Virus record (IMG/VR): IMGVR_UViG_3300049847_000198
Location: 1 to 64,000 of that record
Strand: one strand, 5' to 3'
DNA length: 64,000 nt
From: a virus
Positions 1 to 55,774 of the stretch are shown in pieces (within the stretch, counting starts at the first letter, position 1; every line of letters starts with the position of its first letter). The translations under genes were made by a program, and so were the position numbers. A model generated the notes under the pieces. It saw only the letters and a program-made list of their open reading frames with translations, was not told the origin of the DNA and searched no databases.

Positions 1-93
1 CTAGGCTACGGCTACGGCTACGGCAACGGCTACGGCTACGGCTACGGCTACGGCTACGGCAACGGCTACGGCGACGGCTACGGCGACGGCTAA
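1..93 (+). CDS. 3' end of a Gly-Tyr/Asn/Asp dipeptide-repeat protein (truncated by window edge)
   Basis: Frame 1 reads LGYGYGYGNGYGYGYGYGYGNGYGDGYGDG* (TAA 91-93); GGCTAC-type hexamer tandem repeat, a common phage low-complexity tail. Confidence 0.75.
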   Translation, partial: LGYGYGYGNGYGYGYGYGYGNGYGDGYGDG

Positions 94-185
94 AACTGCC
101 AGGCATCCAGATGTTTGCTGACGAAGAAGACGGAAGACGACGAGTAGGCTTGTGTTTTCTTTTAAGACGAACGTAGCATACGCAC

Positions 186-413
186 ATGGTTGCGACAGAA
201 TTACATCCTGCTGTCTGGACGGTATGCGATAGTTGCGGATCGCAGATGTGGACTCCGGTTTTCGATAGACCGATGAGTCCTGAAGAGCTTGAAGAGTTTC
301 ACGCTTGCTTCGGCGACGAAGCGAAGTCGCTCATGTTTCCTCAGCAGATGGAATGTCCGCATTGCCATGAGGTGTTCGATGTGGACTGTTCTCAATTAGG
401 AGTTCGTTTTTGA
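186..413 (+). CDS. small Zn-ribbon protein
   Basis: CDSC...CPHC pairs. Confidence 0.6.
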   Translation: MVATELHPAVWTVCDSCGSQMWTPVFDRPMSPEELEEFHACFGDEAKSLMFPQQMECPHCHEVFDVDCSQLGVRF

Positions 414-600: not shown

Positions 601-807
601 ATGAATCCGAATGCTTGGTATCTAAAAAAGAAGGTCTGGGTTGCAATCGTCTCCGCTGTCGGAGCAATGATCGCAGCGAAGACTGACAATCAAGACATGG
701 CCGACAAGATCGTCTACGTCGGCATGACGCTGATCGGCGCTTTAGGACTTGAAGACTTCGGGAAAGCAAAAGATCAAACGACTCCAACTGAAACGAAAAC
801 AGTATGA
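601..807 (+). CDS. small two-TM membrane protein, holin-like
   Basis: 68 aa, KKK followed by two hydrophobic segments and a charged C-tail; ATGA overlap with next gene. Confidence 0.6.
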   Translation: MNPNAWYLKKKVWVAIVSAVGAMIAAKTDNQDMADKIVYVGMTLIGALGLEDFGKAKDQTTPTETKTV

Positions 808-1580
808 AACAGCTTCGCCTGTCCGCTATCTGCTGGTCTCTATTGTTCTCTGCGGTCATCGCTGCACCGCCAGTGCCGATGATTACCACGAATCTGCAAG
901 AGGGCGGAGAGATCGTGCCAGGCGACCTGGTTGTGTTTGACGCATCAACGTCAACTGACGCCGACCTGTTCAAGTGGGATGTCGATCCAAAAAGGTTTCC
1001 TGATGGAAAACCAACCAACGAATTGTCTGCGGACGGAAAGTCAATCCGTATCGCTTCGCGTCCTGGCACATATTCGGTTTTGCTGGCCGTCGCCAACAAA
1101 GAAGAAATCGTCCTGATGCGTCGGATTGTGAACGTCGGAAAGTCGAATCCAAGCCCATTCAATCCACAGCCGTTTAATCCTGATCCTCCGAAGCCTGACC
1201 CAGCGAAGCCGACGTTTCCTGATGAGCAGTTTGGAATGTCAACGCTGGCCTATGGTGCGGCGATAGCGATGCCTGACAGAAGCAAACACAAGAGCCTCGC
1301 GATGGCATTTCGTGTCGTGGGTGGTGCTGCTGTTGCTGGCGGATATAACTCACTGAAGGAAATCGAACTCGCTTCGGTTGAAGCAAATCGCAAGGCGATC
1401 TGCGGAACAGTTGATCCGAATGGCGAAGAGGGCAAGGCAATTCGGACTGCGTATCTTCCGTTTTTCAAAGCGTTGCAGCCAAAGATCACGGAACTATCTC
1501 TCGACAAGGCTTCACTTCCCGCTCAGTACGGAAGAATGCTTATCGAAATCAGCGACGGACTAATGGCCGCAGGGAAATAG
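804..1580 (+). CDS. secreted protein with PKD/Ig-like domain, Pro-rich linker and helical C-domain
   Basis: N-terminal signal peptide; VVFDASTS..FKWDV..PGTYSVLLAV PKD-like motifs; PNPQPFNPDPPKPDP-type linker. Confidence 0.65.
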   Translation: MKQLRLSAICWSLLFSAVIAAPPVPMITTNLQEGGEIVPGDLVVFDASTSTDADLFKWDVDPKRFPDGKPTNELSADGKSIRIASRPGTYSVLLAVANKEEIVLMRRIVNVGKSNPSPFNPQPFNPDPPKPDPAKPTFPDEQFGMSTLAYGAAIAMPDRSKHKSLAMAFRVVGGAAVAGGYNSLKEIELASVEANRKAICGTVDPNGEEGKAIRTAYLPFFKALQPKITELSLDKASLPAQYGRMLIEISDGLMAAGK

Positions 1581-1582
1581 AC

Positions 1583-2509
1583 ATGCCTGACACAGCGTTT
1601 ACGCCTCTCTTCGGGTGGGCCGGAACCAGGGTCGCCGATGAGGCTTGGGAGCAGGTCGGCGTAGAGATGCCGAAGTTTCAGATCGCAGGATCGAGCCAGT
1701 CGTTCGCAGGACAATCTTTTCGTGCTTGGGAATTCGCTAGAAAGGTGTTTGGAAAAGACATTGACCGTGTCGTTCAACTCACTGGTGACTGCGTGAGTCG
1801 TTCCTCAGCAGATGTCTGCGAGTGGATTCAGTGCATCGAGATTGCGAACGGAGACAGGGAATCGTTCAAGCGAATCCTGTGCAGCTACAACTATGCAACG
1901 AGCCGCGTTCTAGTCGGAAAGAATCAGTTGCGAGGCGGTGCTGGGTCAGTCGGTTCTTGGATGGCGAAAGCGATTCAGCAGTACGGTCTTCTTGCGGATG
2001 ATTTTTCTGGAACGCCAGACTACTCTGGAAAACTGTCGGATGCTTGGGGTGACGACAAGCCGTATAACGGAATCAAGTTCAATCAGTTCATCGACGAGGG
2101 TGACAACCATCCAATTCGCACCGTCTCTCGCATCACGAAATGGGATGACCTTAGAGACGCAATCTGCAACGGGCACTTGGCTACAATCAGTAGCAATCGA
2201 GGATACGCATACAAGCCTGACTCTGACGGATTCCATCGACCAAGCGGTTCATGGTCTCATCAAATGGGAATCGTTGCCATCTCGGACAATCCATCGAAGT
2301 CATGGGTCGGTATATCTAATCAGTGGGGCGACATGTTCGGACATTTGAATGACTTTGAGACTGGCGAACCTTGGCCGATTGGTATGCTTCGCGTGCGTCG
2401 AGACGACTTTGAAAAGCACCACTTAACTTCAAGTGCTGAATGCTTTGTTTACAGTTCTTTCGACGGGTTCCCTGATCGTTCATCCGAACTCACAGGCTTG
2501 CTGATATGA
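1583..2509 (+). CDS. papain-like (C1 family) cysteine peptidase
   Basis: Q-x-x-G-D-C (oxyanion Gln, catalytic Cys), WSHQM (His), NQWG (Asn, cf. NSWG). Confidence 0.75.
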   Translation: MPDTAFTPLFGWAGTRVADEAWEQVGVEMPKFQIAGSSQSFAGQSFRAWEFARKVFGKDIDRVVQLTGDCVSRSSADVCEWIQCIEIANGDRESFKRILCSYNYATSRVLVGKNQLRGGAGSVGSWMAKAIQQYGLLADDFSGTPDYSGKLSDAWGDDKPYNGIKFNQFIDEGDNHPIRTVSRITKWDDLRDAICNGHLATISSNRGYAYKPDSDGFHRPSGSWSHQMGIVAISDNPSKSWVGISNQWGDMFGHLNDFETGEPWPIGMLRVRRDDFEKHHLTSSAECFVYSSFDGFPDRSSELTGLLI

Positions 2510-3177
2510 GACGACGCGATTTTCTGAGCACATTCTTGATTGGTAGTTCAGCTTGCTTTGCGCAAGATGGACTACTGATCGACGACCCGAATCCAGCAAA
2601 CGGATTGTTGATGGACGGCCACGAAGTCGGCGACGGTCTATTGATAGACATTCCGAAAGAAGTTTTAGAGTCTCAGAAAAAGATCGTCGTTCATCTCTAC
2701 TCGCCGACGTGGGCTTGCCCGCCATGCGATGTGGCCATCAAGGAATTGAAGGACCATATAGGCATCAAGCTAGTCGTCCATAAGGACGACGAACCACCTG
2801 GATACTTCAAAGGCAAGTCGTTTCCGATTCTGCATTGGGGGGAGGGTGATAAGTGGCAGTCTGGATGGAATGGGAAAGAAAAATTTCTAGCAAAGCTGCT
2901 TGGCGACGATTCTTCTCCACCATCCAAGAAGACGAATCAATCAATTTCGATCAAGGATTCTGGTGGTCATCACTGGTCCGTGAGCGGCGATTGGCAACCG
3001 ACATTACAGAAGACAATCAATCATCTGGTGCATGTGCATGGCTTTCAGCGTGAGCGACTGGCAAACTTGAATCTTGGTCAAGCCTTGACGCTTCACGATG
3101 CTGTGCATGAAGGGCGATTCAGTCGAGCGAAGCATGTTTCTCAGTATCAGCAGAGAACAGAGGATTGCCCAACTTGA
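2506..3177 (+). CDS. Tat-signal thioredoxin-like (CPPC) protein with His-rich C-domain; may read through UGA to 3246
   Basis: MRRRDFL twin-Arg signal; WACPPC; HLVHVH...LHDAVHE; frame stays open after TGA until TAA 3244-3246. Confidence 0.7.
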   Translation: MRRRDFLSTFLIGSSACFAQDGLLIDDPNPANGLLMDGHEVGDGLLIDIPKEVLESQKKIVVHLYSPTWACPPCDVAIKELKDHIGIKLVVHKDDEPPGYFKGKSFPILHWGEGDKWQSGWNGKEKFLAKLLGDDSSPPSKKTNQSISIKDSGGHHWSVSGDWQPTLQKTINHLVHVHGFQRERLANLNLGQALTLHDAVHEGRFSRAKHVSQYQQRTEDCPT

Positions 3178-3249
3178 CCGACAAGCAATAACGGAGCACG
3201 GTCGTACTCCGCGAAACAAAGTTCCTTTCTTTTCTTCAGGTGGTAAATC

Positions 3250-3636
3250 ATGTCAGACATAGATGCCCATGTTGCGAATTGTCTTCAGGCGAAAACGACG
3301 TTTGCAGATCAAAAAGAACTGCAAGTTGCGGGATTCGACTTCATGTCACTGATCGGCATTCTATTGCCGGTATTGACGCAACTGCTTGGCAACTGCTTCA
3401 AGACGCCTACGGCGGAAGAAATCTCGGCGCGGCTGGCGAAAGGCGAAGCCGACCCGAACGTGCGTCAGGCGGCATGGGTTGCTGTCAAAAAGGCGACGCA
3501 GGACAAGCTGCACAACGCGACCAACCTGCGACTTAGCCAAGGTCTCTGCGAGGCTTGCAGGACTGCGACTGACGAGCAACGCATGGAGTTTGTTACCGGC
3601 GTCAAGAACGTCAACGAAGACGGATTGCTGATCTAG
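3250..3636 (+). CDS. hypothetical protein with one hydrophobic segment, ends DGLLI
   Basis: ATG with AGGTGG RBS; last gene of the module before a terminator. Confidence 0.7.
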   Translation: MSDIDAHVANCLQAKTTFADQKELQVAGFDFMSLIGILLPVLTQLLGNCFKTPTAEEISARLAKGEADPNVRQAAWVAVKKATQDKLHNATNLRLSQGLCEACRTATDEQRMEFVTGVKNVNEDGLLI

Positions 3637-3714: not shown

Positions 3715-3744
3715 AACGCCGCAAGGATGCGGCGTTCGGTTTTT
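3715..3744 (+). terminator. rho-independent terminator
   Basis: AACGCCGCA-agga-TGCGGCGTT stem, then a T run; A run upstream, so possibly bidirectional. Confidence 0.65.
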
Positions 3745-3812
3745 ATGAAAGTAGACTCGCCGATCTGCTTCTGGTTACGATTATTCGTCACTCGAATTAT
3801 CGGAGCGGAAAC

Positions 3813-12900: not shown

Positions 12901-14106
12901 TCACCTTGCGGATAGCAGTGCGTCTTCCTTCTTCAACGGGTCGGCTTGATGGATCGCAATAGGCGACACCTCAGCGGCCGAGTCCCTCGAAAGGCGAATT
13001 ACCCCGATTGACACCAGGGCACGGGCGAGAACGACTCTGGCACTTGCATGGTCGCGATGGCATTGCGAACCACAACTACAGTTGTGTTCTCGTTCCGAAA
13101 GTTCTTTCTTCTTGACGACCCCGCAATCGGGGCACTCTTGGGATGTGCCTCTTGGATCAACCTGAACGAATACCCGCGCAGCATTTGCAGCTTTCACGGA
13201 GATTTGATTCATGAAGATTCCCCAAGAGGCGTCACTTATCGACTTGGCCAAGCAATGATTCTTGACCATCCCTTTGATGTTGAGTTTCTCGGCCGCAATG
13301 AACGAGAAGCCGCGAACGAGTTCTGTGCTCCGACGATGACAGAACGATCTCCGTTGAGCGGCAATTCGCTCATGTTGCCGTTGCAGGCGAACTACCGCCT
13401 TGCGGCGATTTTGGCTGCCCTTCTTCTTGCGAGACACCGACCTCTGTAAGCCTCGCAGCTTCTTCTCTGACTTGCGGTAGAAGCGTGGATTTTCAATCTG
13501 CGATCCGTCGCTCAACGTAGCGAATGACTCCAATCCAACGTCGATGCCGACTGAGCCTTGATCTTCAAGGTTCTTGATCGTCGTGGACTCAGTAACAACG
13601 ACTTGGCCATACCAACCTGATGCCCGGCGGATGATCCTGAGTAGTTTCTGCGTCTTGGAAATTCGTTGGTTTCCGCAGCGAATCCGAACCAATCCGAGTT
13701 TCGGAATCGAGACAAGACTATCTCCGCGAACGTACTGGCCGACCGCTGCATACTCCATGCTGTTGTACCGTTTCCAAGAACGGAATCGCGGAAACCCAAC
13801 CTTGCCGGCACCTGCCTTTGCCCGGCGGAAGAATGCCTGTAATCCGCGATCAACGCGACGCAGGGCGTCACGCTCAAAAGCCACTGGAATCGAAGCAAGC
13901 CCCACCATTCGGGCACGCTGCTGTGTCAACAACGCTTGCTGCTGATTGTAATTCACAGACCCAGCACGCCGCTCATAGGCTTTGATTCGCTGATCCAAGG
14001 CTCGATTGAAGATTCCACAGCAAGTCCGCATCCACGAAGAGAGTGTCTCTTCTTGGGCGGGCTTGAGATAGAGTTTGAATTCAATCGTTTTCATCGGCTT
14101 GTTCAC
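12901..14106 (-). CDS. tnpB: IS200/IS605-family TnpB RNA-guided endonuclease, no adjacent TnpA
   Basis: HTH-like N-terminus KTIEFKLY; GFPRFR; RuvC-I GIDVG, RuvC-II AAEKLNIKGM, CPDCG..CSCG Zn finger, RuvC-III HRD. Confidence 0.92.
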   Translation of the reverse strand: MNKPMKTIEFKLYLKPAQEETLSSWMRTCCGIFNRALDQRIKAYERRAGSVNYNQQQALLTQQRARMVGLASIPVAFERDALRRVDRGLQAFFRRAKAGAGKVGFPRFRSWKRYNSMEYAAVGQYVRGDSLVSIPKLGLVRIRCGNQRISKTQKLLRIIRRASGWYGQVVVTESTTIKNLEDQGSVGIDVGLESFATLSDGSQIENPRFYRKSEKKLRGLQRSVSRKKKGSQNRRKAVVRLQRQHERIAAQRRSFCHRRSTELVRGFSFIAAEKLNIKGMVKNHCLAKSISDASWGIFMNQISVKAANAARVFVQVDPRGTSQECPDCGVVKKKELSEREHNCSCGSQCHRDHASARVVLARALVSIGVIRLSRDSAAEVSPIAIHQADPLKKEDALLSAR

Positions 14107-46363: not shown

Positions 46364-47449
46364 TTATGGTTCCGGCTTGAAGAGTTTCGTGAAGTCCGCC
46401 TTCTGGTAGATCGCCGTCTCGTCCTGATAGCCAATCACGAGGTCGTCGTAGTTGTACCCGAACGCGAAGTTGCAATCGCTGAATGGGTTATTGACCTGCC
46501 GCTCCAGGCGATAGAAGCCAGCCGGGGCGAAGATGCACTCGGCGTATGGACCCGTACCGACCTTGTTGCTCGCACCTTGATAGAAGAAATGGTTCCATCC
46601 GCCCGGAGCGTCTTGGTCCATAGCGAATACCCGTTTTTCGCTGAACCGATAGACCATCTCCATCGCGTAGGTGCCGTCAGACATCACCTGAGTCTGCACC
46701 TGTGCTCCTGGAAAAAGAAGCGTCTCGACGGCAACCTGACCAGTGATGAAATTCAACTGAGACGAATTGACGTGACCTATGCAGTTTCGGATCGCTGTGA
46801 ACGGCGGACGAACCACTCGCGGCCAAGTTACCTCGTGCTCGATCTGAGCAATCAAGACGTGTGCTTTCGTGTCTTCGTCAACCTGACGACCAACCCAGTT
46901 TCGGTAAGTCGGATCGCTTGGCAAGACAGGAACAGTCTCTGTTTTGTAGAGCAGCTTATCCCACACACTGCCGCCACGACCGAGCGTGATGACCTCCCCG
47001 CCAATCGACCAACGATGCGTCAGATACGGCACAGGGTCAGTGTCGTTGACTGGCTGGTTCTTGAGGTTCTCATACGTCAGTTCGACGTGCGCATGGTTGT
47101 AGACCGGCAGCTTGATTGATGTGCCAGTGTAGTCCAAAACAGGACTAATCGCAGGAGCGACGTTCGCAATCAGGTCTCCGGCATTGACTGGAATGATTTT
47201 CAGGTTCGTGCAGCGCAGATTCGGCCAACCGGGAAACGCTTGTCCGAGGTACTGGTATAGATTGCCTGAGATGATCTGCGACGGCGGGAAAATCGACGTA
47301 GCGAACGCAGCGAGATCGTCCCACGGAACCCAGCCACAGACAGTGGCACGCGATTCATTGGAACTGATATCGAACGTCGGATACCCAGCTTCGACCGAGA
47401 ACCCTGACGTTGGTGATGCGTTGGGGTATGCCCCAATGTTTGTGCTCAT
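46364..47449 (-). CDS. probable distal tail/baseplate-hub protein
   Basis: follows TMP; G.VN...F, ETLLF.G, Y.F and GWN motifs. Confidence 0.55.
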   Translation of the reverse strand: MSTNIGAYPNASPTSGFSVEAGYPTFDISSNESRATVCGWVPWDDLAAFATSIFPPSQIISGNLYQYLGQAFPGWPNLRCTNLKIIPVNAGDLIANVAPAISPVLDYTGTSIKLPVYNHAHVELTYENLKNQPVNDTDPVPYLTHRWSIGGEVITLGRGGSVWDKLLYKTETVPVLPSDPTYRNWVGRQVDEDTKAHVLIAQIEHEVTWPRVVRPPFTAIRNCIGHVNSSQLNFITGQVAVETLLFPGAQVQTQVMSDGTYAMEMVYRFSEKRVFAMDQDAPGGWNHFFYQGASNKVGTGPYAECIFAPAGFYRLERQVNNPFSDCNFAFGYNYDDLVIGYQDETAIYQKADFTKLFKPEP

Positions 47450-47487: not shown

Positions 47488-50400
47488 CTACGCCAGCAAA
47501 CCCGTTTCCATGTTCTGGATCGCACCAACCGTCTGGCCAACGCCGTTAGAGATCATGCCAAGTTTTTCGTTCAGCGTGCGGAGAATGTCCGTCAGCACCT
47601 TGGAATTATCAAGTCCGTCCTTTAATGACACTTCCATGCCCTTTGAAGAAACATCACTGCCGCCTCCGATACCAAGGCGGTTCATCCGATCTTCCTGTGC
47701 CTTCAAAGCGTCCTTGCCATACTCGATCTTCGGCATTCCTTTGACTTCGTCTTGTCCTGCCTTCCAGCCTTCATATTCAGTGTTGCCTCGTGCGCTGTAG
47801 TTCGGCTTCGCGGACGTCGGCATGTCCGACAAACGACCCGCAACCTGCTTCTCTCGCTGAGACGTTCCTTTCGTGTAGCGTCCCGTGTCTTTGTTCATCA
47901 ACGTGCTCGCCTCGTGACTGAACTCTGGAGTCGCCTTGTCCATCCACGAGTTTCTTTTAGTCGCAGCACCGACACGAGTCCCTCTACTACTCCCGTAGTC
48001 GGTTCGAGGAATGATCCCGCTTTTCAGGCTACCGAAACTCCAAGGTTCAGGTTTTTCTTCTTCTTTCGGCTTAGCGGCATCGGAAGCATTCTTGCGAGCA
48101 AGCATCCCTGCTCGCTTTGTGTCTGATTCAACCTTCTTCTGTGAATCAGTTTTCGGTTCTGCATACAGCCGCCCCGTTGCGTCTTGCGCCTTCTGGGACA
48201 TGCCACGTCTCTGCATTTGCTTGAGATGCTCTTCTTTGGCCATCTCGCGAAAATCAGGACCAAGCGGCTGCGTGTATGTTGCCGTAGATTTGCTTGACGA
48301 GGCATTTGCTCCCATGCCCTTTGTGCCCTGCGAGCGAGGACCGGGCATCGTGAACTCCATCTCGCTGGTTTCTCCACCAGTTCGAGGTTCAAGCATCTTC
48401 TTGCGAAGAAACTTCAACGACGATTCATCTGCGCCAACGCCAGAGGCACGCTTCATTGAGTCTTGCGCTCGCTGAGACAAAGCAGAATCCTGGTGCTGAT
48501 CATAGAGTCGTTCCCCTGCCCCGTAATGGTTCTGGCTATTCCCGCCTGCTCTAAGCTGGCCGAGAGTTGGCAACGGTCCAACAAAAAGACTGCGACGAGA
48601 AATCTTCTCTCGTTCTGCGTTCTTTGCCGCCACCGCTTCCTGTTGTCGTTTTCGTGACGCCTTGAGTTGCTCGTTGCGTTGCTGAAACGGCGTCAGCGAC
48701 TTCTTGAAATAGGATCTGGATTGAGGAGCGGCTGACGGAATCGCCGGTCCAGCACCGAACGATTCGTGCTGTGGTTTATTCACCGTTGGGCGAGTTTCTT
48801 TTTTCTTTTCCTCAACAGGCTTCTTGTCGTAATCTGGAGCATCGAACCACAATTGGCCGCGACCAGAACCCGCACCCCATCCAAAACCTCCGCCGCCCGC
48901 GAATCCCGGAACGCCAGCCTCGCCGAACATCTCCGCTGATCGCTTACCGTTGTTCTGCCCAAGCCGCTCCTGCTGCTGCGGAGTCAGCACGACTTCACCG
49001 GGACGCAATCGTGCCGGGATCGTGTCGCGTGCGTCGCCTCGTCCGCCTTCCGCATATCCACGAATCATGCCACCCATCGCGCTGCCGGGAAACTTAGCCC
49101 CTCTGGCAAGGTCGTCTCGCAGAGCCTTGATCTCGTCACGAATCTGTTTTTCAACTTCCAGTGACGGATCGTTATTCAAAAGAGATGTCTGGATTGTGTT
49201 ATACAATCCCTCAACGCCCATTACCTGCGCCGTACCCTTCGGGCGTGCGGCGTTATCCAGTTGCTTCAGGATCGTTTGCTGATCGCCAGCAGAAGAATCA
49301 TTAAACGACTCTTTGAGTGCTCCACGACTCTGCTTGATGTCGTCGAGACGGAACAAGCCTTCATTCACGACACCGGGAAGCATCTGACTGAAGTTACGCA
49401 GTCCTGCTCCGGCGATTCCGAGAGCACGTTTGAACTTTGCTCGCTCTGCGTCGGCTACAAGCTGCAACGCCTCTGGTTCAGCGTTCAGCTTCTCGTAAGC
49501 CTTACGTCGAATCTCTAACTCGACTACCAGCTTTTGACTCTCTTGCTCGATATCTCGCTGAGCGTTGAATTCCGCAAGAATTCGAGACTGACCTTTCGTC
49601 GTCATGTATTCTTGAGTTCGACGTTCTTTCTCTGGCTTGCTGGTCAGATTGTTATAGGCCGCTTGCGTGACATCGAGTTTCTCTTTGAGTTCAGGTCCGA
49701 GTCGTCTTACTCGCTCTTTCGCCTCCTTGATTGCCGCTTCATTCCCTTGAAGTCTTTCGCTTGCTCGACTGACGGCTTCCCCGAAAACAGGACGACCAGT
49801 TCTTGCTTGCTGGTTCCTTGCCTGCATCAACTCGTCTGATGTTGAGTTCGGATTCTCAGTCGCCTGACGAACGAGTTCCGCTCGTCCCTTGATGCTGTCG
49901 TCTAGTTCCTTCAGGAGAGCTTCAAGCTCCTTGTAAACACCAGCTTCTTTTTCTTTATCGAACTTTGCCTGTAGTTCGTTGATATGTTTGCGAGCGCGAA
50001 CGCGATCAAGTTCCGACATCTCAGTGAAATTCCACAGCTTTGGATTTTCTTTCGCAGCCTGAGAAAAATTCTTCGGAGCGTTGAATCTCCCTTTTGGTTC
50101 ATATTTTTCCTCCTCAAGCCCCAGTCGAGCGAAAGTGTCACCGAAAGCTGGACCAATAGACTCAAAGAATCCAGAGAACGCATCTTTGAAGTAATTGCCA
50201 ACCGCTGGAAGTGGAGCACGATTCGGGTCTCGCTTGTCTGGAATGGACTCCTTCTCCATTCGGTTCATCTGTGCCTTGAGCTTGTTGATCTCCGCGTTGA
50301 CCGCCATTGGGTCGCCAGAAATCTTCAGGATGTCTTCCGAGATCGAACCTGACGAAGATCGACCACGAATCTTCTCAACCTTGCCCATCGAGTCAGCAAG

Positions 50401-52413
50401 ACGGTCGATCGAGTCCTTCCATCCCTCTGTTGATTTCTTCGCCTTCTTCGAGGCGATGTCATACAGCGCAGTCACAGCCAACAACGAAGCGATGCCAACG
50501 CTTGCCGCTGTGCCGCCTACGCCTACCAATGCCAACGCGGGTCCAATGTTGTTCGCTGCACCAAGAAACGCCCTGACAGGTGATTGCCCTGCCGCGAGAA
50601 CTTGGAAGAAGTCCTCAACGCCATACGCCGCCTGCTGTGCGGCGAACGTCAGGTTTTGGCCTCCAAACCCCTTTGATGCGGCATTCGGGTTGCGGACACG
50701 CTCGTTCTCTCTGTGTGCCTGAGCGAGTTTTGTTTGCGCAGCCTGAATCTTGTATTTGCTGGCACCGCTTGCTTCTAGGTCCGCCAAGACATTCTGTGCT
50801 TTATCGAGCGCGGCTTGAGCAGGTATAGCCTTCGCGGCGTTTACCGCGTTCATTTTCCGGCGTGTCTTTAGAGTTCGTTTATCTTCGGCAGCAATATCTT
50901 CCAGTAGCTTAGCTGATTCCGCAGCCGCTGTGTCGCCTCTCGCAGCCGCCGCCGCTCCTGCCTTCCTCTGTTTTATTTCTTCTTTTTTGGCTGCCTTGAA
51001 GTCTCCTACGATAAGTTTATCAGCGTCGCCGTAAGCCGATTCGAGATGCTTAGCAGTCAGACTTCGGTCAACTCCGAAAAGACCGCGTCCTTTGCGTATC
51101 TTCTCGGTAGCGTCGTCGTAGGCTTCTTGGCGATCCCCAAAGCGACTTGACGGCTTCGGGGCGTTTGCGGCATTCATCTTCGCCCACTGTGCTGCATTCG
51201 GTGCCGCAGGTCCGAACTGCGGACCTGGTGGCGGCGGTGAGTTTGCCGCTGCATTGGCAGCGTTCATCTTCGCCTGCTGAGCAGGAGTAGGTGCCGCAGG
51301 TCCGAACTGCGGCATTGACTGAGCGGCATTCATTGCCGCTTGTTGCTGCGGAGTCGGAACAGGCGGTCCAGCCGCCTGATGTGGTCCATAGGTTCCTGTC
51401 GGCTGACGGAACTGGTCTCGCTCCTGTTTCTTCTGGTTCTCTTTCTGTTCTCTAATCCAGTCGTCGGCAAACTTCTTATCCGCAGCCGCTTTTGCCGCCG
51501 CAGCCTTAGCGGAAACGTCCGCCGCTTTCTTTGCGTCAGCTTCTTGCTTCTGCCTATTCGCGTTCGCTGACTTAATCCAGTCGGCGGAAAACTTAGCCGC
51601 TGCGTCAGCTTTCTTCTTCTCGGCGTCAGCAGCTTTCTTTTGTGATTTTGCGTAATCAGCTTCTTGCTTCTTTGCGTCAGACCGAGAAGAAGCGATCCAC
51701 TGCTTCGCGAACTCTTCGTCCGCCTTGGCTTTGGCGATGCGAGCGGCTTCCGCCTGCTTCTCGGCAGTAGGCAATTCGTCTCCGCCAAGAGAGCGTTTAA
51801 CGCCACCCATCGAGTTTCCTCCGGGAAGAAAACCGCCACCACCAACGGGCGGGTTCTCTCCGGCAGGCAATTCGTAATGGACGCGAAACTTCTCTTGCTC
51901 TTTCAGGCGATACTTCTGGCGAGCACTTAAAATGCTCCCCGAAGGAAGAGGCTGATTTGGTCCCCCCAAGTCTGGACCGCCAAAATTAGCCGGTAATGGC
52001 CTTTGAGAAGGCGCTGTCGGTGTTTGCTCAATCGGCGGATTCGACGATCCAGAACGCGATTTTCGAGTCTTGGGAGCGTTCCGTGCGGCATTGGCTGAAG
52101 AAACAGCAGTCTTCGCTTCCTTCGCGGCCGCCGCCACGGCGTTCAGGTCCGTGACCATCGCGCTGGATTGCTCGGAAACGACGTTCCTGAGACCTGTCTT
52201 TGCCTTTTCGCCAGCATCAAGAAAAGCCTCTCCGAGAACTGCGGCAGCGACTACCACACGTCCAAGGCTGTTTTCCATGCTCTTAGATGCGGATTCCACG
52301 GTCTTTGCCAGACCATCAACCTTCGTTTCAGTCTTTTTTGTCGCCGCAGAGAGTTCTTCCTCTGAAAAAAGAACGCCCTGAACGAACCGCACGTTTTTCT
52401 TTGAATCCGCCAT
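47488..52413 (-). CDS. tape measure protein (1641 aa) with large low-complexity extensions
   Basis: Ala/Lys helical repeats; QQAAYGVEDF followed by a TM-like segment; GGMIRGYAEGG..DTIPARL.PGE.VL motif. Confidence 0.85.
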   Translation of the reverse strand: MADSKKNVRFVQGVLFSEEELSAATKKTETKVDGLAKTVESASKSMENSLGRVVVAAAVLGEAFLDAGEKAKTGLRNVVSEQSSAMVTDLNAVAAAAKEAKTAVSSANAARNAPKTRKSRSGSSNPPIEQTPTAPSQRPLPANFGGPDLGGPNQPLPSGSILSARQKYRLKEQEKFRVHYELPAGENPPVGGGGFLPGGNSMGGVKRSLGGDELPTAEKQAEAARIAKAKADEEFAKQWIASSRSDAKKQEADYAKSQKKAADAEKKKADAAAKFSADWIKSANANRQKQEADAKKAADVSAKAAAAKAAADKKFADDWIREQKENQKKQERDQFRQPTGTYGPHQAAGPPVPTPQQQAAMNAAQSMPQFGPAAPTPAQQAKMNAANAAANSPPPPGPQFGPAAPNAAQWAKMNAANAPKPSSRFGDRQEAYDDATEKIRKGRGLFGVDRSLTAKHLESAYGDADKLIVGDFKAAKKEEIKQRKAGAAAAARGDTAAAESAKLLEDIAAEDKRTLKTRRKMNAVNAAKAIPAQAALDKAQNVLADLEASGASKYKIQAAQTKLAQAHRENERVRNPNAASKGFGGQNLTFAAQQAAYGVEDFFQVLAAGQSPVRAFLGAANNIGPALALVGVGGTAASVGIASLLAVTALYDIASKKAKKSTEGWKDSIDRLADSMGKVEKIRGRSSSGSISEDILKISGDPMAVNAEINKLKAQMNRMEKESIPDKRDPNRAPLPAVGNYFKDAFSGFFESIGPAFGDTFARLGLEEEKYEPKGRFNAPKNFSQAAKENPKLWNFTEMSELDRVRARKHINELQAKFDKEKEAGVYKELEALLKELDDSIKGRAELVRQATENPNSTSDELMQARNQQARTGRPVFGEAVSRASERLQGNEAAIKEAKERVRRLGPELKEKLDVTQAAYNNLTSKPEKERRTQEYMTTKGQSRILAEFNAQRDIEQESQKLVVELEIRRKAYEKLNAEPEALQLVADAERAKFKRALGIAGAGLRNFSQMLPGVVNEGLFRLDDIKQSRGALKESFNDSSAGDQQTILKQLDNAARPKGTAQVMGVEGLYNTIQTSLLNNDPSLEVEKQIRDEIKALRDDLARGAKFPGSAMGGMIRGYAEGGRGDARDTIPARLRPGEVVLTPQQQERLGQNNGKRSAEMFGEAGVPGFAGGGGFGWGAGSGRGQLWFDAPDYDKKPVEEKKKETRPTVNKPQHESFGAGPAIPSAAPQSRSYFKKSLTPFQQRNEQLKASRKRQQEAVAAKNAEREKISRRSLFVGPLPTLGQLRAGGNSQNHYGAGERLYDQHQDSALSQRAQDSMKRASGVGADESSLKFLRKKMLEPRTGGETSEMEFTMPGPRSQGTKGMGANASSSKSTATYTQPLGPDFREMAKEEHLKQMQRRGMSQKAQDATGRLYAEPKTDSQKKVESDTKRAGMLARKNASDAAKPKEEEKPEPWSFGSLKSGIIPRTDYGSSRGTRVGAATKRNSWMDKATPEFSHEASTLMNKDTGRYTKGTSQREKQVAGRLSDMPTSAKPNYSARGNTEYEGWKAGQDEVKGMPKIEYGKDALKAQEDRMNRLGIGGGSDVSSKGMEVSLKDGLDNSKVLTDILRTLNEKLGMISNGVGQTVGAIQNMETGLLA

Positions 52414-55048: not shown

Positions 55049-55111
55049 CACTAGCCAGACGGGATTGGTTCTGCCCACGAGTGCTCTTTCTGGCCTTGAG
55101 ACACATTAAAA

Positions 55112-55183
55112 TGCGACGTGACGGAATCGAACCGCCTTTCAGGGAGTTGAAAATCCCTTGCATGACCAATCTGCCAACGCCGC
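55112..55183 (-). tRNA. tRNA with Cys-like body and 8-nt anticodon loop UUUUCAAC (UCA or UUC reading)
   Basis: GCGGCGT/ACGTCGC+A; D-arm GCA-GATTGGTCA-TGC; AGGGA/TCCCT; T-arm GGCGG-TTCGATT-CCGTC. Confidence 0.85.
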
Positions 55184-55774
55184 ACGAACCTACCCGATCA
55201 CCCAATACTTCTCGCCCGTCAGCCAGTTATGAAAGTCTGGCGAACCTGGTCGATAGTGAAGAAACTTGTCGATCTTCTTTTCGAGTCGTGCCGCATCAAC
55301 CGGACGACTGCCTTTGTTCTCGACTTCCGAATACTTCCTGCCGCGAATGAACGCCAACGCGAGTCCCGCGTACCGAGACTCTTCTCGAAGTTCTCGAATG
55401 CGATGAGAGCGAAGCAGTTCGACGTAGATCAGTCCGCATCGCTTTTCTTCCTGACGGATCAGTCGCGACTCCGCAGCAAGCGATTTTGCGTTGATCCTGA
55501 GCCTATGGATCGCGAAGACTCTTTGGTTGTCCCATTCGCCGGGATGCGCGGCGGCGTAAACCAGTCGCCGTTCCTGACGCTTGGTTCGCTGCTTGATCTT
55601 CTTGCGTGCTCCGAACTGCGGATGACAGATGATGGCAGACGGAGCGAGTTGATTGTGGTTCTGGTTTTCGATGGTTGCTGTGGTCATATCGTTTTCCTTG
55701 GAATTGAAACCTGAGATGGAAGAAAGAAACGTACCGTCGAACACTTCAGGAATCACGGCGGACCTCTCGCGTAT

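What the first reader, a model, noticed from the sequence alone, without database searches (positions are those of the whole stretch)
601..3636. Envelope-targeted protease/redox module whose proteins share a GLLI motif
Seen: five coupled genes (2-TM holin-like, secreted PKD-like, C1 protease, Tat CPPC protein, hydrophobic protein). The protease ends TGLLI*, the last gene ends DGLLI*, the predicted mature Tat protein starts with three copies (DGLLID, NGLLMD, DGLLID), and the PKD protein has DGLM near its end. The protease has no signal peptide. Inference: the motif is a docking, co-export (Tat hitch-hiking) or cleavage tag. The module could be a non-canonical lysis or cell-wall remodelling system for a protein-rich, disulfide-crosslinked Planctomycete envelope (reductase plus protease). 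No endolysin is visible in this window.
Basis: partly seen in the sequence, partly recalled or inferred. Interest (0 to 1): 0.8.

Follow-up and report, generated by a model that had tools for sequence, protein, structure and literature searches.

The report
Phage protease cassette with private peptide tag
A phage of planctomycete bacteria carries a probable cell-bursting gene cassette built around a papain-type protease, and the protease's short tail peptide is copied onto its exported partner protein, a pairing that recurs with different peptides in many related phages and so looks like a private recognition code.

Summary
Five co-directional genes (601-3636) end at a terminator-like hairpin (3715-3745). 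GLL[IM] occurs five times in three adjacent proteins, against 0.02 expected.

- **Conservation:** the protease tail [DE]GLLI is kept in all 13 closest homologs. The three GLLxD repeats after the Tat signal are kept in all 12 partner homologs.
- **Rejected copy:** the "DGLM" in the PKD protein is not part of the motif.
- **Protease:** it is a xylellain/procathepsin-like C1-fold enzyme (Z 23) with invariant Gln, Cys, His, Asn and Trp.
- **Host range:** the family occurs in 129 of 401 sampled Planctomycetia genomes. It sits next to holin-like, terminase, portal and capsid genes.
- **Endolysin:** none was found in the 112-kb record.
- **New result:** in related loci the protease tail differs (DLDFRIFG, WSYARFA, DWSIW, ELFPQ and others). 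The same peptide reappears at the N-terminus of the exported protein encoded just downstream (permutation p ≤ 5e-5, window excluded).

I read this as a phage-specific peptide code, most likely read by the protease itself, inside a non-canonical lysis cassette. Tat hitch-hiking is not favoured. The mechanism is inferred, not shown. The scan's earlier notes held no look-alike of this protease on other DNA.

The parts
601..807 (+). Small membrane protein (68 aa), a holin candidate
   Evidence: One clear hydrophobic segment (residues 12-28) and a weaker one. PHROG holin families hit at E 0.004-0.3. Small TM proteins sit in the same position in related loci.
804..1580 (+). Exported protein (258 aa): signal peptide, PKD-like Ig domain, Pro-rich linker, C-terminal helical domain
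   Evidence: Hydrophobic N-terminus. Pfam PKD at E 0.006, below the cut-off. Homologs lie upstream of the protease in planctomycete genomes L020 and L030 (E 5e-9 and 8e-15). Shorter relatives (about 140-160 aa) lie upstream of the protease in other clades. Its 'DGLM' is not a motif copy.
1583..2509 (+). Papain-fold (C1A, xylellain-like) cysteine peptidase, 308 aa, no signal peptide, zymogen-like N-terminus
   Evidence: AF2 pLDDT 95.5. Foldseek finds xylellain at E 2e-10. VIA-align gives Z 23.2 to 3ois and Z 20-21 to procathepsin B; zymogens align from residue 1 and mature enzymes from residues 29-41. Q65, C70, H226, N246 and W248 are invariant in 54 homologs.
2492..2506 (+). C-terminal tail TGLLI of the protease
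   Evidence: The 13 closest homologs all end [DEN]G[LMF]L[IF]. The tail lies beyond the C1 fold, which ends at about residue 294, yet is modelled with pLDDT about 84.
2506..3177 (+). Tat-signal partner protein (223 aa to the TGA): three tail copies, thioredoxin-like domain, His-rich helical domain
   Evidence: RRRDFL is kept in 11 of 12 homologs and W69, C71 and C74 are invariant. In the AF2 model residues 1-48 are disordered, residues 57-135 are thioredoxin-like (pLDDT 83-89) and residues 165-203 are helical. Thioredoxins are the top Foldseek hits (E about 1e-3). PHROG thioredoxin hits at E 0.004.
2566..2649 (+). Three motif copies, DGLLID (2566-2583), NGLLMD (2599-2616) and DGLLID (2632-2649), in the disordered N-terminal region of the mature partner
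   Evidence: Conserved in 11 of 12 homologs as GLL[IL]D / G[LMFIV]LxD / G[MLW]L[LI]D[IV]P; P0072 lacks the middle copy.
3175..3246 (+). In-frame TGA and a 22-codon extension ending ...SSFLFFRW, probably translated
   Evidence: Eight of the nine homologs that extend this far continue ...CPTGxCPTQ...GSFLFWRW; the ninth (P0072) keeps the ...GSFLFWRW end but has a different Cys motif. The window's post-TGA frame encodes the same tail, and the TGA sits where the homologs have the second Cys.
3250..3636 (+). Small helical protein (128 aa) with one hydrophobic segment, ending DGLLI (3619-3633)
   Evidence: The 74%-identical homolog ends EDGLLI and the 43%-identical one ends VDWSMS. An analogous third protein in L029 ends VDWSVW, like that locus's protease, which ends IDWSIW.
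3715..3745 (+). Terminator-like hairpin plus T-run that closes the five-gene unit
   Evidence: 9-bp stem with 6 GC pairs, followed by CGGTTTTTAT.
47488..52413 (-). 1641-aa ORF ending ETGLLA (possible tape measure protein); whether it belongs to the system is uncertain
   Evidence: It is the only other ORF in the record that ends GLLx. No homologs of its C-terminal 500 aa were found, so conservation is untestable. It resembles tape-measure clusters by language-model features only (score 0.92).

Best explanation
The five genes form the envelope-directed, most likely lysis, cassette of a tailed phage of Planctomycetia. A small membrane protein (the holin candidate) and an exported PKD/helical protein precede a cytoplasmically made, zymogen-like papain-fold cysteine peptidase, which is the lytic enzyme. 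Next come an exported partner protein and a small helical protein.

The GLLI peptide is a phage-specific short linear motif. It ends the protease. It is present three times in the disordered N-terminus of the mature partner, each time followed by Asp. It also ends the small protein.

I infer that the protease itself reads this peptide, either in its substrate cleft or in an adjacent groove. On this reading its own tail is a cis, product-like ligand: a bulky hydrophobic penultimate residue fits a papain-type S2 pocket. The partner's N-terminal copies would then dock onto the protease once both are outside the cytoplasm, and may be cut by it. Docking would bring the partner's Cys/Sec motifs and thioredoxin-like domain next to the catalytic cysteine, to activate it, to keep it reduced or to cap it. 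The third protein's tail would compete for the same site, as a timing or retention factor.

Shown here: the gene order, the fold, the catalytic residues, the conservation of the motif, the co-variation between tail and partner, and the association with Planctomycetia.

Inferred: lysis as the role, the protease as the reader of the motif, and the redox action of the partner.
For: **The motif is real and conserved.**

**Co-variation with different peptides in other clades.**

| Locus | Protease tail | Partner N-terminus |
|---|---|---|
| L020 | DLDFRIFG | GDPDFRLFAEP |
| L036 | DLDFHLI* | DPDFQLIDLP |
| L037 | DLDFDVL | ADLDFDVLAGP |
| L039 | LNFNVFG | AFNVF + DFNVF |
| L069 | RWSYARFA* | SWSYAGFLAEP |
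| L078 | RWTYAGFA* | PWTYAGFLDEP |
| L067 | LPELFPQ | IELFPQ + LELFP |
| L029 | DWSIW* | AWSLWAADP |

- A permutation test on 30 protease clusters (at most 60% identity, window excluded) gave cognate pairs a summed score of 490 against a mean of 385. None of 20,000 permutations reached it.
- A score of 24 or more was reached by 6 of 30 cognate pairs and by 8 of 870 non-cognate pairs.

**Protease and partner belong together.**
- L030 fuses a protease to a partner-type C-terminal Cys motif.

**The protease as reader.**
- The tail is modelled as ordered (pLDDT about 84), although it lies outside the C1 fold.
- The penultimate tail residue is a bulky hydrophobic in roughly 85-90% of the 61 homologs.
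- Natural C-termini such as DFRLIG* coincide with the end of the internal motif in the longer forms, such as DFRIFG-ATAD....

**Lysis and envelope context.**
- Holin-like neighbours are present.
- Homologs in L019, L020, L030, L031 and L032 carry an N-terminal membrane anchor.
- The cassette lies directly upstream of the terminase gene in L003, L018 and L032, and next to the portal, capsid or tail genes elsewhere.
- None of 10 Pfam endolysin families was found in the 112-kb record.
- BFVD holds phage C1-fold proteins annotated with peptidoglycan-binding or muramidase parts.

**Host.** The family was found in 129 of 401 sampled Planctomycetia genomes, against 0 of 400 in another phylum. The cultured Thalassoglobus neptunius carries the cassette.
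Against: - No experiment and no complex model was available. I could not inspect the model's coordinates, so where the tail sits on the protease is unknown.
- The N-terminal 30-40 residues superpose on zymogen pro-segments. That suggests the cleft is occupied by the N-terminus, not by the tail, in the resting form.
- Only about a fifth to a quarter of the non-redundant clusters show a clear tail/partner match with my crude ORF calls. The DWSAFG and RFDHxxLG clades show none.
- C1A peptidases are not known peptidoglycan hydrolases, so the substrate is unknown.
- The record is only 79% complete, and two of the ten endolysin searches had silent controls. A conventional endolysin could therefore still exist.
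- The holin assignment is weak.
- No Pfam Peptidase_C1 profile hit was obtained.
Confidence: 0.5

Rival explanations
1. The motif is purely a cleavage site. The C1 protease cuts after its cognate peptide. This frees long-form proteases from their C-terminal membrane anchors and trims or releases the partner. The natural ...GLLI-COOH ends are evolutionary 'pre-cut' products with no docking role.
For: - A hydrophobic residue at the would-be P2 position occurs in most tails.
- In the long forms the internal motif is followed by a linker and a TM segment (L020, L030, L038, L039). Short forms end exactly at the motif (L021, L036).
- Residues after the partner's copies are small or acidic.
Against: - Several partner copies are followed closely by Pro (FG-PEP, FT-PQ), which is poor for papain-type cleavage.
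- Trimming a few N-terminal residues from an already exported partner has no evident purpose.
- It does not explain why a third small protein carries the tail at its own C-terminus.
- The ordered tail in the model argues for a bound state.
Confidence: 0.22
2. Tat hitch-hiking. The signal-less protease binds the folded Tat-signal partner in the cytoplasm through the GLLI peptides and is co-exported before lysis.
For: - In the GLLI clade, the signal-less protease, a twin-arginine signal (11 of 12 homologs) and tandem motif copies (three in 11 of 12 homologs) occur together.
- Tat exports folded complexes (established knowledge).
Against: - The same tail/N-terminus mimicry occurs with partners that have ordinary signal peptides or lipoboxes and no twin arginine (L029, L035, L036, L037, L069, L078). 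Co-export of a folded complex is not possible there.
- Both proteins carry the same peptide, so a separate receptor surface is still needed.
Confidence: 0.12
3. The peptide is read by a host factor and not by a phage protein. Candidates are a periplasmic PDZ protease of the HtrA or Ctp type, or a cytoplasmic degradation adaptor that recognises hydrophobic C-termini.
For: - The tags are hydrophobic C-terminal ends.
- The internal copies are followed by Asp, Glu or Ala, which could mimic a terminal carboxylate.
Against: - The peptide differs widely between phages of one bacterial class yet matches within each phage. That points to a co-evolving, phage-encoded reader.
- The conserved hydrophobic position is the penultimate residue, not the pattern typical of PDZ ligands.
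- The only PDZ hint in the window is a Pfam hit at E 0.19.
Confidence: 0.07
4. The cassette does not serve lysis. It is an envelope-remodelling, entry or prophage fitness module, for example surface-protein processing or superinfection exclusion.
For: - The family is very common in Planctomycetia genomes and sometimes occurs in several copies per genome.
- L028 lies among host-like genes.
- C1A enzymes cut proteins and are not known to cut peptidoglycan.
- A possible tape measure protein ends GLLA.
Against: - The cassette has holin-like neighbours and sits in the classical position before the terminase gene.
- The family has both cytoplasmic and membrane-anchored enzyme forms, as endolysins do.
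- No alternative lysin was found.
Confidence: 0.2

Closest known systems
Holin-endolysin(-spanin) lysis cassettes of tailed phages (lambda S/R/Rz type; SAR endolysins)
   Same: - A small membrane protein is encoded next to a lytic enzyme.
- The enzyme is made either without a signal or with an N-terminal membrane anchor in relatives.
- Extra exported or lipoprotein components are present.
- The cassette lies just upstream of the terminase gene in several loci.
   Different: - The enzyme has a C1A papain fold and belongs to no known peptidoglycan hydrolase family.
- A Cys-motif or thioredoxin-like partner is coupled to it.
- A tail peptide is shared between the enzyme, the partner and a third protein.
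- No spanin pair was recognised.
Xylellain (PDB 3ois) and procathepsin B-type C1A zymogens
   Same: - Same fold (Z 23.2 and Z 20-21).
- Same catalytic Gln, Cys, His, Asn and Trp.
- An N-terminal segment superposes on the pro-segment.
- A published survey records that xylellain-type C1A genes were acquired by Myoviridae and Siphoviridae (PMC10380794).
   Different: - Only 13-16% identity, and no Pfam Peptidase_C1 hit.
- It has an extra, conserved C-terminal tail.
- It sits in a phage cassette with a co-varying partner.
Baculovirus V-CATH with chitinase ChiA (from general knowledge; V-cath as a virally acquired C1A gene is mentioned in PMC10380794)
   Same: A virus-encoded C1A protease is made as a latent proenzyme and used at the end of infection to break down host barriers. 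It depends on a co-encoded partner protein.
   Different: It is a eukaryotic virus using ER retention through the partner's KDEL signal. No shared private peptide or redox partner is known.
Adenovirus protease with its pVIc peptide cofactor (general knowledge)
   Same: A viral cysteine protease is regulated by a short terminal peptide from another viral protein. The peptide docks on the enzyme and involves a cysteine.
   Different: The fold is different (clan CE). The cofactor is released by cleavage from the C-terminus of a substrate. The protease's own tail is not mimicked.
Tat hitch-hiking complexes such as hydrogenase small and large subunits (general knowledge)
   Same: A signal-less protein is encoded next to a twin-arginine partner.
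   Different: Here the shared peptide also occurs with non-Tat partners, so co-export cannot be the general explanation.

Membership tests
Peptidase family C1 (papain-like, C1A, xylellain type) | Two-lobed papain fold | tested here: met
   AF2 pLDDT 95.5. VIA-align Z 23.2 to xylellain and Z 18-21 to many C1A enzymes over 210-246 residues. Foldseek E 2e-10.
Peptidase family C1 (papain-like, C1A, xylellain type) | Catalytic Cys-His dyad with oxyanion-hole Gln and Asn-x-Trp | tested here: met
   Q65, C70, H226, N246 and W248 are invariant in 54 homologs.
Peptidase family C1 (papain-like, C1A, xylellain type) | Match to the curated sequence profile (Pfam Peptidase_C1) | tested here: not met
   No Pfam family at E <= 1 and no NCBIfam family. 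I therefore call it C1-fold/C1A-like and not a profile-defined member.
Peptidase family C1 (papain-like, C1A, xylellain type) | Proteolytic activity sensitive to E-64-type inhibitors | not testable with these tools
   Needs a biochemical assay.
Phage holin | Small protein with at least one TM segment, encoded next to the lytic enzyme, that triggers membrane permeabilisation | tested here: inconclusive
   68 aa with one clear hydrophobic segment and one weak one. PHROG holin hits at E 0.004-0.3. The position is conserved. Function not testable here.
Twin-arginine (Tat) signal peptide | S/T-R-R-x-F-L-K-like motif, a moderately hydrophobic h-region and an A-x-A-type cleavage site | tested here: met
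   MRRRDFLS...CFA-Q in the window. RR-x-FL is kept in 11 of 12 homologs, with Ala at -1. The h-region scores below the TM threshold. This is pattern-level only; no dedicated predictor was run.
Thioredoxin-fold oxidoreductase | Thioredoxin fold with a CxxC active site at the start of helix 1 | tested here: inconclusive
   W69, C71 and C74 are invariant. Residues 57-135 are modelled at pLDDT 83-89. Thioredoxins are the top Foldseek hits, but only at E about 1e-3 and TM 0.5. PHROG thioredoxin hits at E 0.004. There is no Pfam hit.
Conventional phage endolysin (peptidoglycan hydrolase families) | A domain of a known muramidase, transglycosylase, amidase or peptidoglycan endopeptidase family somewhere in the genome | tested here: not met
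   PF00959, PF01510, PF01464, PF13539, PF01520, PF01551, PF00877 and PF05257 gave 0 matches in the 112-kb record, with positive controls. The controls for PF00182 and PF05838 were silent. The record is 79% complete.
PKD domain protein | Match to the PKD profile above the curated cut-off | tested here: not met
   PF00801 scored 17 bits against a cut-off of 23.5. Homologs with the same N-terminal Ig-like segment exist in L020 and L030.

The most novel reading that the evidence does not exclude
Planctomycetia phages lyse their hosts with a previously unrecognised system in which a papain-type protease replaces the endolysin. Each phage would carry a private peptide code: the protease's C-terminal tail, copied at the N-terminus of an exported Cys/Sec-motif partner and at the C-terminus of a small third protein. 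That code would assemble, time or activate the enzyme only with its own cognate components.
Probability: 0.35. Interest if true: 0.85.

Novelty: new variant of a known kind. Interest (0 to 1): 0.72.

Why it matters
Phage lysis has been worked out almost entirely in Proteobacteria and Firmicutes. How phages leave Planctomycetes, with their unusual envelope, is unknown.

A cassette found in about a third of the sampled Planctomycetia genomes offers concrete, testable candidates. It pairs a C1-fold protease with a co-evolving exported partner and has no recognisable endolysin.

The matching of tail and partner N-terminus, with different peptides in different phages, is a clean natural co-variation data set for a short linear motif. 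It could define a new way of coupling or gating a protease. It may also supply orthogonal peptide/enzyme pairs and lytic enzymes for a phylum that is hard to manipulate.

Tried and rejected
- **The look-up of encoding contigs was closed.** The genomic contexts of the closest (GLLI-clade) homologs from Logan/ENA could not be fetched. Their link to the Tat partner rests only on matching contig lengths.
- **No close relatives in viral collections.** Two viral-contig scans and the INPHARED phage tblastn found no relatives.
- **Profile libraries named only one of the five proteins.** Pfam, PHROG and NCBIfam gave no significant family for the five proteins beyond weak holin, PKD and thioredoxin hints.
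- **The 1641-aa ORF ending GLLA.** No homologs of its C-terminal 500 aa, no Pfam hit and no PDB sequence hit were found. Whether it belongs to the system is left open.
- **A PDZ reader encoded in the window.** The only hint was a Pfam hit at E 0.19 in ORF 46364-47449, with nothing in NCBIfam. I dropped it.
- **Capsid-targeting (encapsulin-like) and sliding-clamp-binding readings of the tail.** I considered these from memory and dropped them, because two carriers are exported or envelope-directed and the peptide co-varies with the partner.
- **TnpB as a host marker.** At most 41% identity to planctomycete copies, so it is uninformative.
- **The first small co-variation test.** Ten loci gave only p of 0.03-0.09. 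The signal became clear only with the 60 Planctomycetia loci.
- **Partner homology across clades.** Profile search detects it in only a few loci.
- **Literature searches.** They found no description of this cassette.


Full report
**Setting**

The window is the first 64 kb of a 112,081-bp linear IMG/VR virus record estimated to be 79% complete. It encodes a portal, an HK97-type capsid protein, a sliding clamp, an HNH endonuclease and a TnpB, so it is a tailed phage.

**The observation**

ORF listing confirms five tightly packed + strand genes at 601-807 (68 aa), 804-1580 (258 aa), 1583-2509 (308 aa), 2506-3177 (223 aa) and 3250-3636 (128 aa). A terminator-like hairpin with a T-run follows at 3715-3745.

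- The 308-aa protein ends TGLLI and the 128-aa protein ends DGLLI.
- The 223-aa protein starts MRRRDFL...CFA and then carries DGLLID, NGLLMD and DGLLID.
- In all six frames of the whole 112 kb, GLLI occurs five times, four of them here. Only three reading frames end GLLx-stop, and all three are real ORFs. The third is a 1641-aa ORF (47488-52413, minus strand) that ends ETGLLA.
- From the record's own composition, 0.021 GLL[IM] are expected in the three proteins and 5 are seen (P about 3e-11). 0.079 proteins are expected to end GLLx and 3 do (P about 8e-5).

The pattern is therefore not chance.

**What the proteins are**

*The 308-aa protein.* It has no Pfam, PHROG or NCBIfam family, but it has 60 homologs.
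- An AlphaFold model built on 54 of them is confident (pLDDT 95.5).
- The model matches xylellain (3ois, Z 23.2) and procathepsin B, L and K (Z 18-21).
- Q65, C70, H226, N246 and W248 are invariant. This is the papain signature.
- Zymogen structures align from model residue 1, while mature enzymes align from residues 29-41. The N-terminus therefore resembles a pro-segment.
- The fold ends near residue 294. The tail (295-308) is an add-on, yet it is modelled with pLDDT about 84.
- There is no hydrophobic N-terminal segment.

*The 223-aa protein.*
- It keeps a twin-arginine motif in 11 of 12 homologs and an invariant WxCxxC.
- Its model has a disordered N-terminus (residues 1-48, holding the repeats), a thioredoxin-like domain (57-135, pLDDT 83-89) and a helical domain (165-203).
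- Thioredoxins are the top structural hits, at modest scores.

*The 258-aa protein.*
- It has a signal peptide and a sub-threshold PKD hit.
- It has clear homologs directly upstream of the protease in planctomycete genomes.
- Its 'DGLM' aligns with a non-motif helix end in relatives, so that claimed fourth copy is rejected.

*The 68-aa protein.* It is a weak holin candidate.

**Conservation of the motif**

- The 13 closest protease homologs (53-64% identity) all end [DEN]G[LMF]L[IF]. More distant clades end differently, for example WSLI, DWSAFG, WGEVIG or xxGMV. They nearly always have a bulky hydrophobic penultimate residue.
- All 12 partner homologs keep the first and third GLLxD-type repeats right after the signal peptide, and 11 keep all three.
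- The 128-aa protein has only four detectable relatives. The 74%-identical one ends EDGLLI and the 43%-identical one ends VDWSMS.
- The C-terminus of the 1641-aa ORF has no homologs. Its GLLA end cannot be evaluated.

**Context in relatives**

- Sixteen metagenome loci and four genome loci show a recurring order. A small TM protein and a signal-anchored or lipoprotein of about 150 aa (plus a PKD domain in some) come first. The protease and an exported Cys-motif protein follow.
- Neighbouring genes are the terminase, portal, major head and tail fibre genes. In L003, L018 and L032 the cassette lies directly upstream of the terminase gene.
- In L019, L020, L030, L031 and L032 the protease carries an N-terminal membrane anchor. 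In L030 it is fused to a C-terminal part that ends with the partner-type Cys motif.
- None of ten Pfam endolysin families matched the 112-kb record. Eight of these searches had positive controls.
- BFVD contains phage C1-fold proteins, some annotated with peptidoglycan-binding or muramidase parts.
- A published survey notes that xylellain-type C1A genes were acquired by tailed phages, and gives no function for them (PMC10380794).

**Host**

- One genome locus is in the cultured planctomycete Thalassoglobus neptunius KOR42.
- A profile search found the family in 6 of 401 genomes sampled evenly across the phylum.
- It found the family in 129 of 401 genomes of the class that contains T. neptunius, with up to five copies per genome.
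- It found the family in 0 of 400 further genomes of another phylum.

The Planctomycete association is well supported for the family. It is indirect for this particular phage.

**The key new result**

I fetched 60 Planctomycetia loci. In many of them the protease's tail peptide reappears just after the hydrophobic signal segment of the protein encoded immediately downstream. The peptide is different in each clade:

| Locus | Protease tail | Partner N-terminus |
|---|---|---|
| L020 | DLDFRIFG | GDPDFRLFAEP |
| L035 | VDFSIFG | ADVSFAVFGPE |
| L036 | DLDFHLI-stop | DPDFQLIDLP |
| L037 | DLDFDVL | ADLDFDVLAGP |
| L039 | LNFNVFG | AFNVF and DFNVF |
| L067 | LPELFPQ | IELFPQ and LELFP |
| L069 | RWSYARFA-stop | SWSYAGFLAEP |
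| L078 | RWTYAGFA-stop | PWTYAGFLDEP |
| L029 | DWSIW-stop | AWSLWAADP |

- I tested 30 protease clusters of at most 60% identity. The window fell out of this test because its Tat signal failed my hydrophobicity filter. Cognate tail/partner pairs scored 490 against a mean of 385, and none of 20,000 permutations reached that value.
- A score of 24 or more was reached by 6 of 30 cognate pairs and by 8 of 870 non-cognate pairs.
- L029 also encodes a third small helical protein that ends VDWSVW, like its protease, which ends IDWSIW. This parallels the window's 128-aa protein. The two are not detectably homologous.
- The partners are very diverse. They share a C-terminal Cys motif, and in part a His-rich helical domain. 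The thioredoxin-like domain is present in only some of them.

**Interpretation**

The tail and the partner's N-terminal copies are under selection to be the same peptide within each phage, while they diverge between phages. That calls for a co-evolving, phage-encoded reader.

- the tail is ordered in the model;
- a hydrophobic penultimate residue fits the S2 preference of papain-type enzymes (established for the family, inferred here);
- natural C-termini coincide with the end of the internal motif in the longer forms;
- protease and partner occur fused.

Whether the partner's copies only dock or are also cleaved cannot be decided here.

Tat hitch-hiking is disfavoured as a general mechanism, because the mimicry also occurs with partners that lack a Tat signal. 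A host reader is disfavoured by the within-phage matching.

The lysis role is plausible but unproven. The substrate, whether peptidoglycan stems or envelope proteins, is unknown.

**Limits**

- I had no access to model coordinates or to complex prediction.
- My ORF calls in high-GC genomes are crude.
- Several clades show no match.

**Earlier notes**

The scan's earlier notes on this genome flagged the TGA at 3175 and an odd tRNA. The partner alignment adds that the post-TGA frame encodes the family's conserved C-terminal tail. No look-alike of this protease had been noted elsewhere in the scan.

Noticed in passing
window 3175-3246: The partner gene's TGA (after C-P-T) is followed in frame by 22 codons that end SSFLFFRW. 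Eight of the nine homologs that extend this far read ...CPTGxCPTQ...GSFLFWRW, so the extension is conserved at the protein level and the TGA sits where they have a Cys. Two homologs (P0063, P0067) also stop right after CP[SV]. This fits Sec or Cys read-through.
   Followed up: partly
window 55111-55184 (-): ARAGORN reports one tRNA of undetermined identity with a four-base anticodon 'ttca' in an enlarged loop. It is a candidate decoder of the TGA above.
   Followed up: no
window 47488-52413 (-): A 1641-aa ORF with no family or PDB match ends ETGLLA. It is the only other ORF in the record that ends GLLx. Language-model look-alikes include tape measure proteins (score 0.92). No homologs of its C-terminal part were found.
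   Followed up: partly
L030:3180-4763 (+): In one Planctomycetota genome the protease is a 527-aa fusion. It comprises an N-terminal anchor, the C1 domain, an internal tail motif (ALDFRIIG), a TM segment and a C-terminal part that ends CVDGKCRLVD like the separate partner proteins. This is a gene-fusion link between protease and partner.
   Followed up: partly
Planctomycetia genomes G973, G833, G807, G977: Several genomes carry 2-5 copies of the protease gene, some with identical scores at distant chromosomal positions. This suggests multiple related prophages or a transposable phage.
   Followed up: no
window 12901-14106 (-): An IS605-type OrfB/TnpB (Cas12f-like TNB domain) sits next to the capsid gene inside the phage. 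The best planctomycete matches reach only about 40% identity.
   Followed up: partly
window 1-187: The record starts with a low-complexity repeat that reads (RL)n / (RS)n in opposite frames. It may be a terminal or assembly-end repeat.
   Followed up: no
L020:10950-11107 (+): The Thalassoglobus neptunius protease has, after the internal tail motif, a linker, a hydrophobic segment and an RRRRHTRR cluster. This resembles a C-terminal sorting or anchor signal.
   Followed up: no
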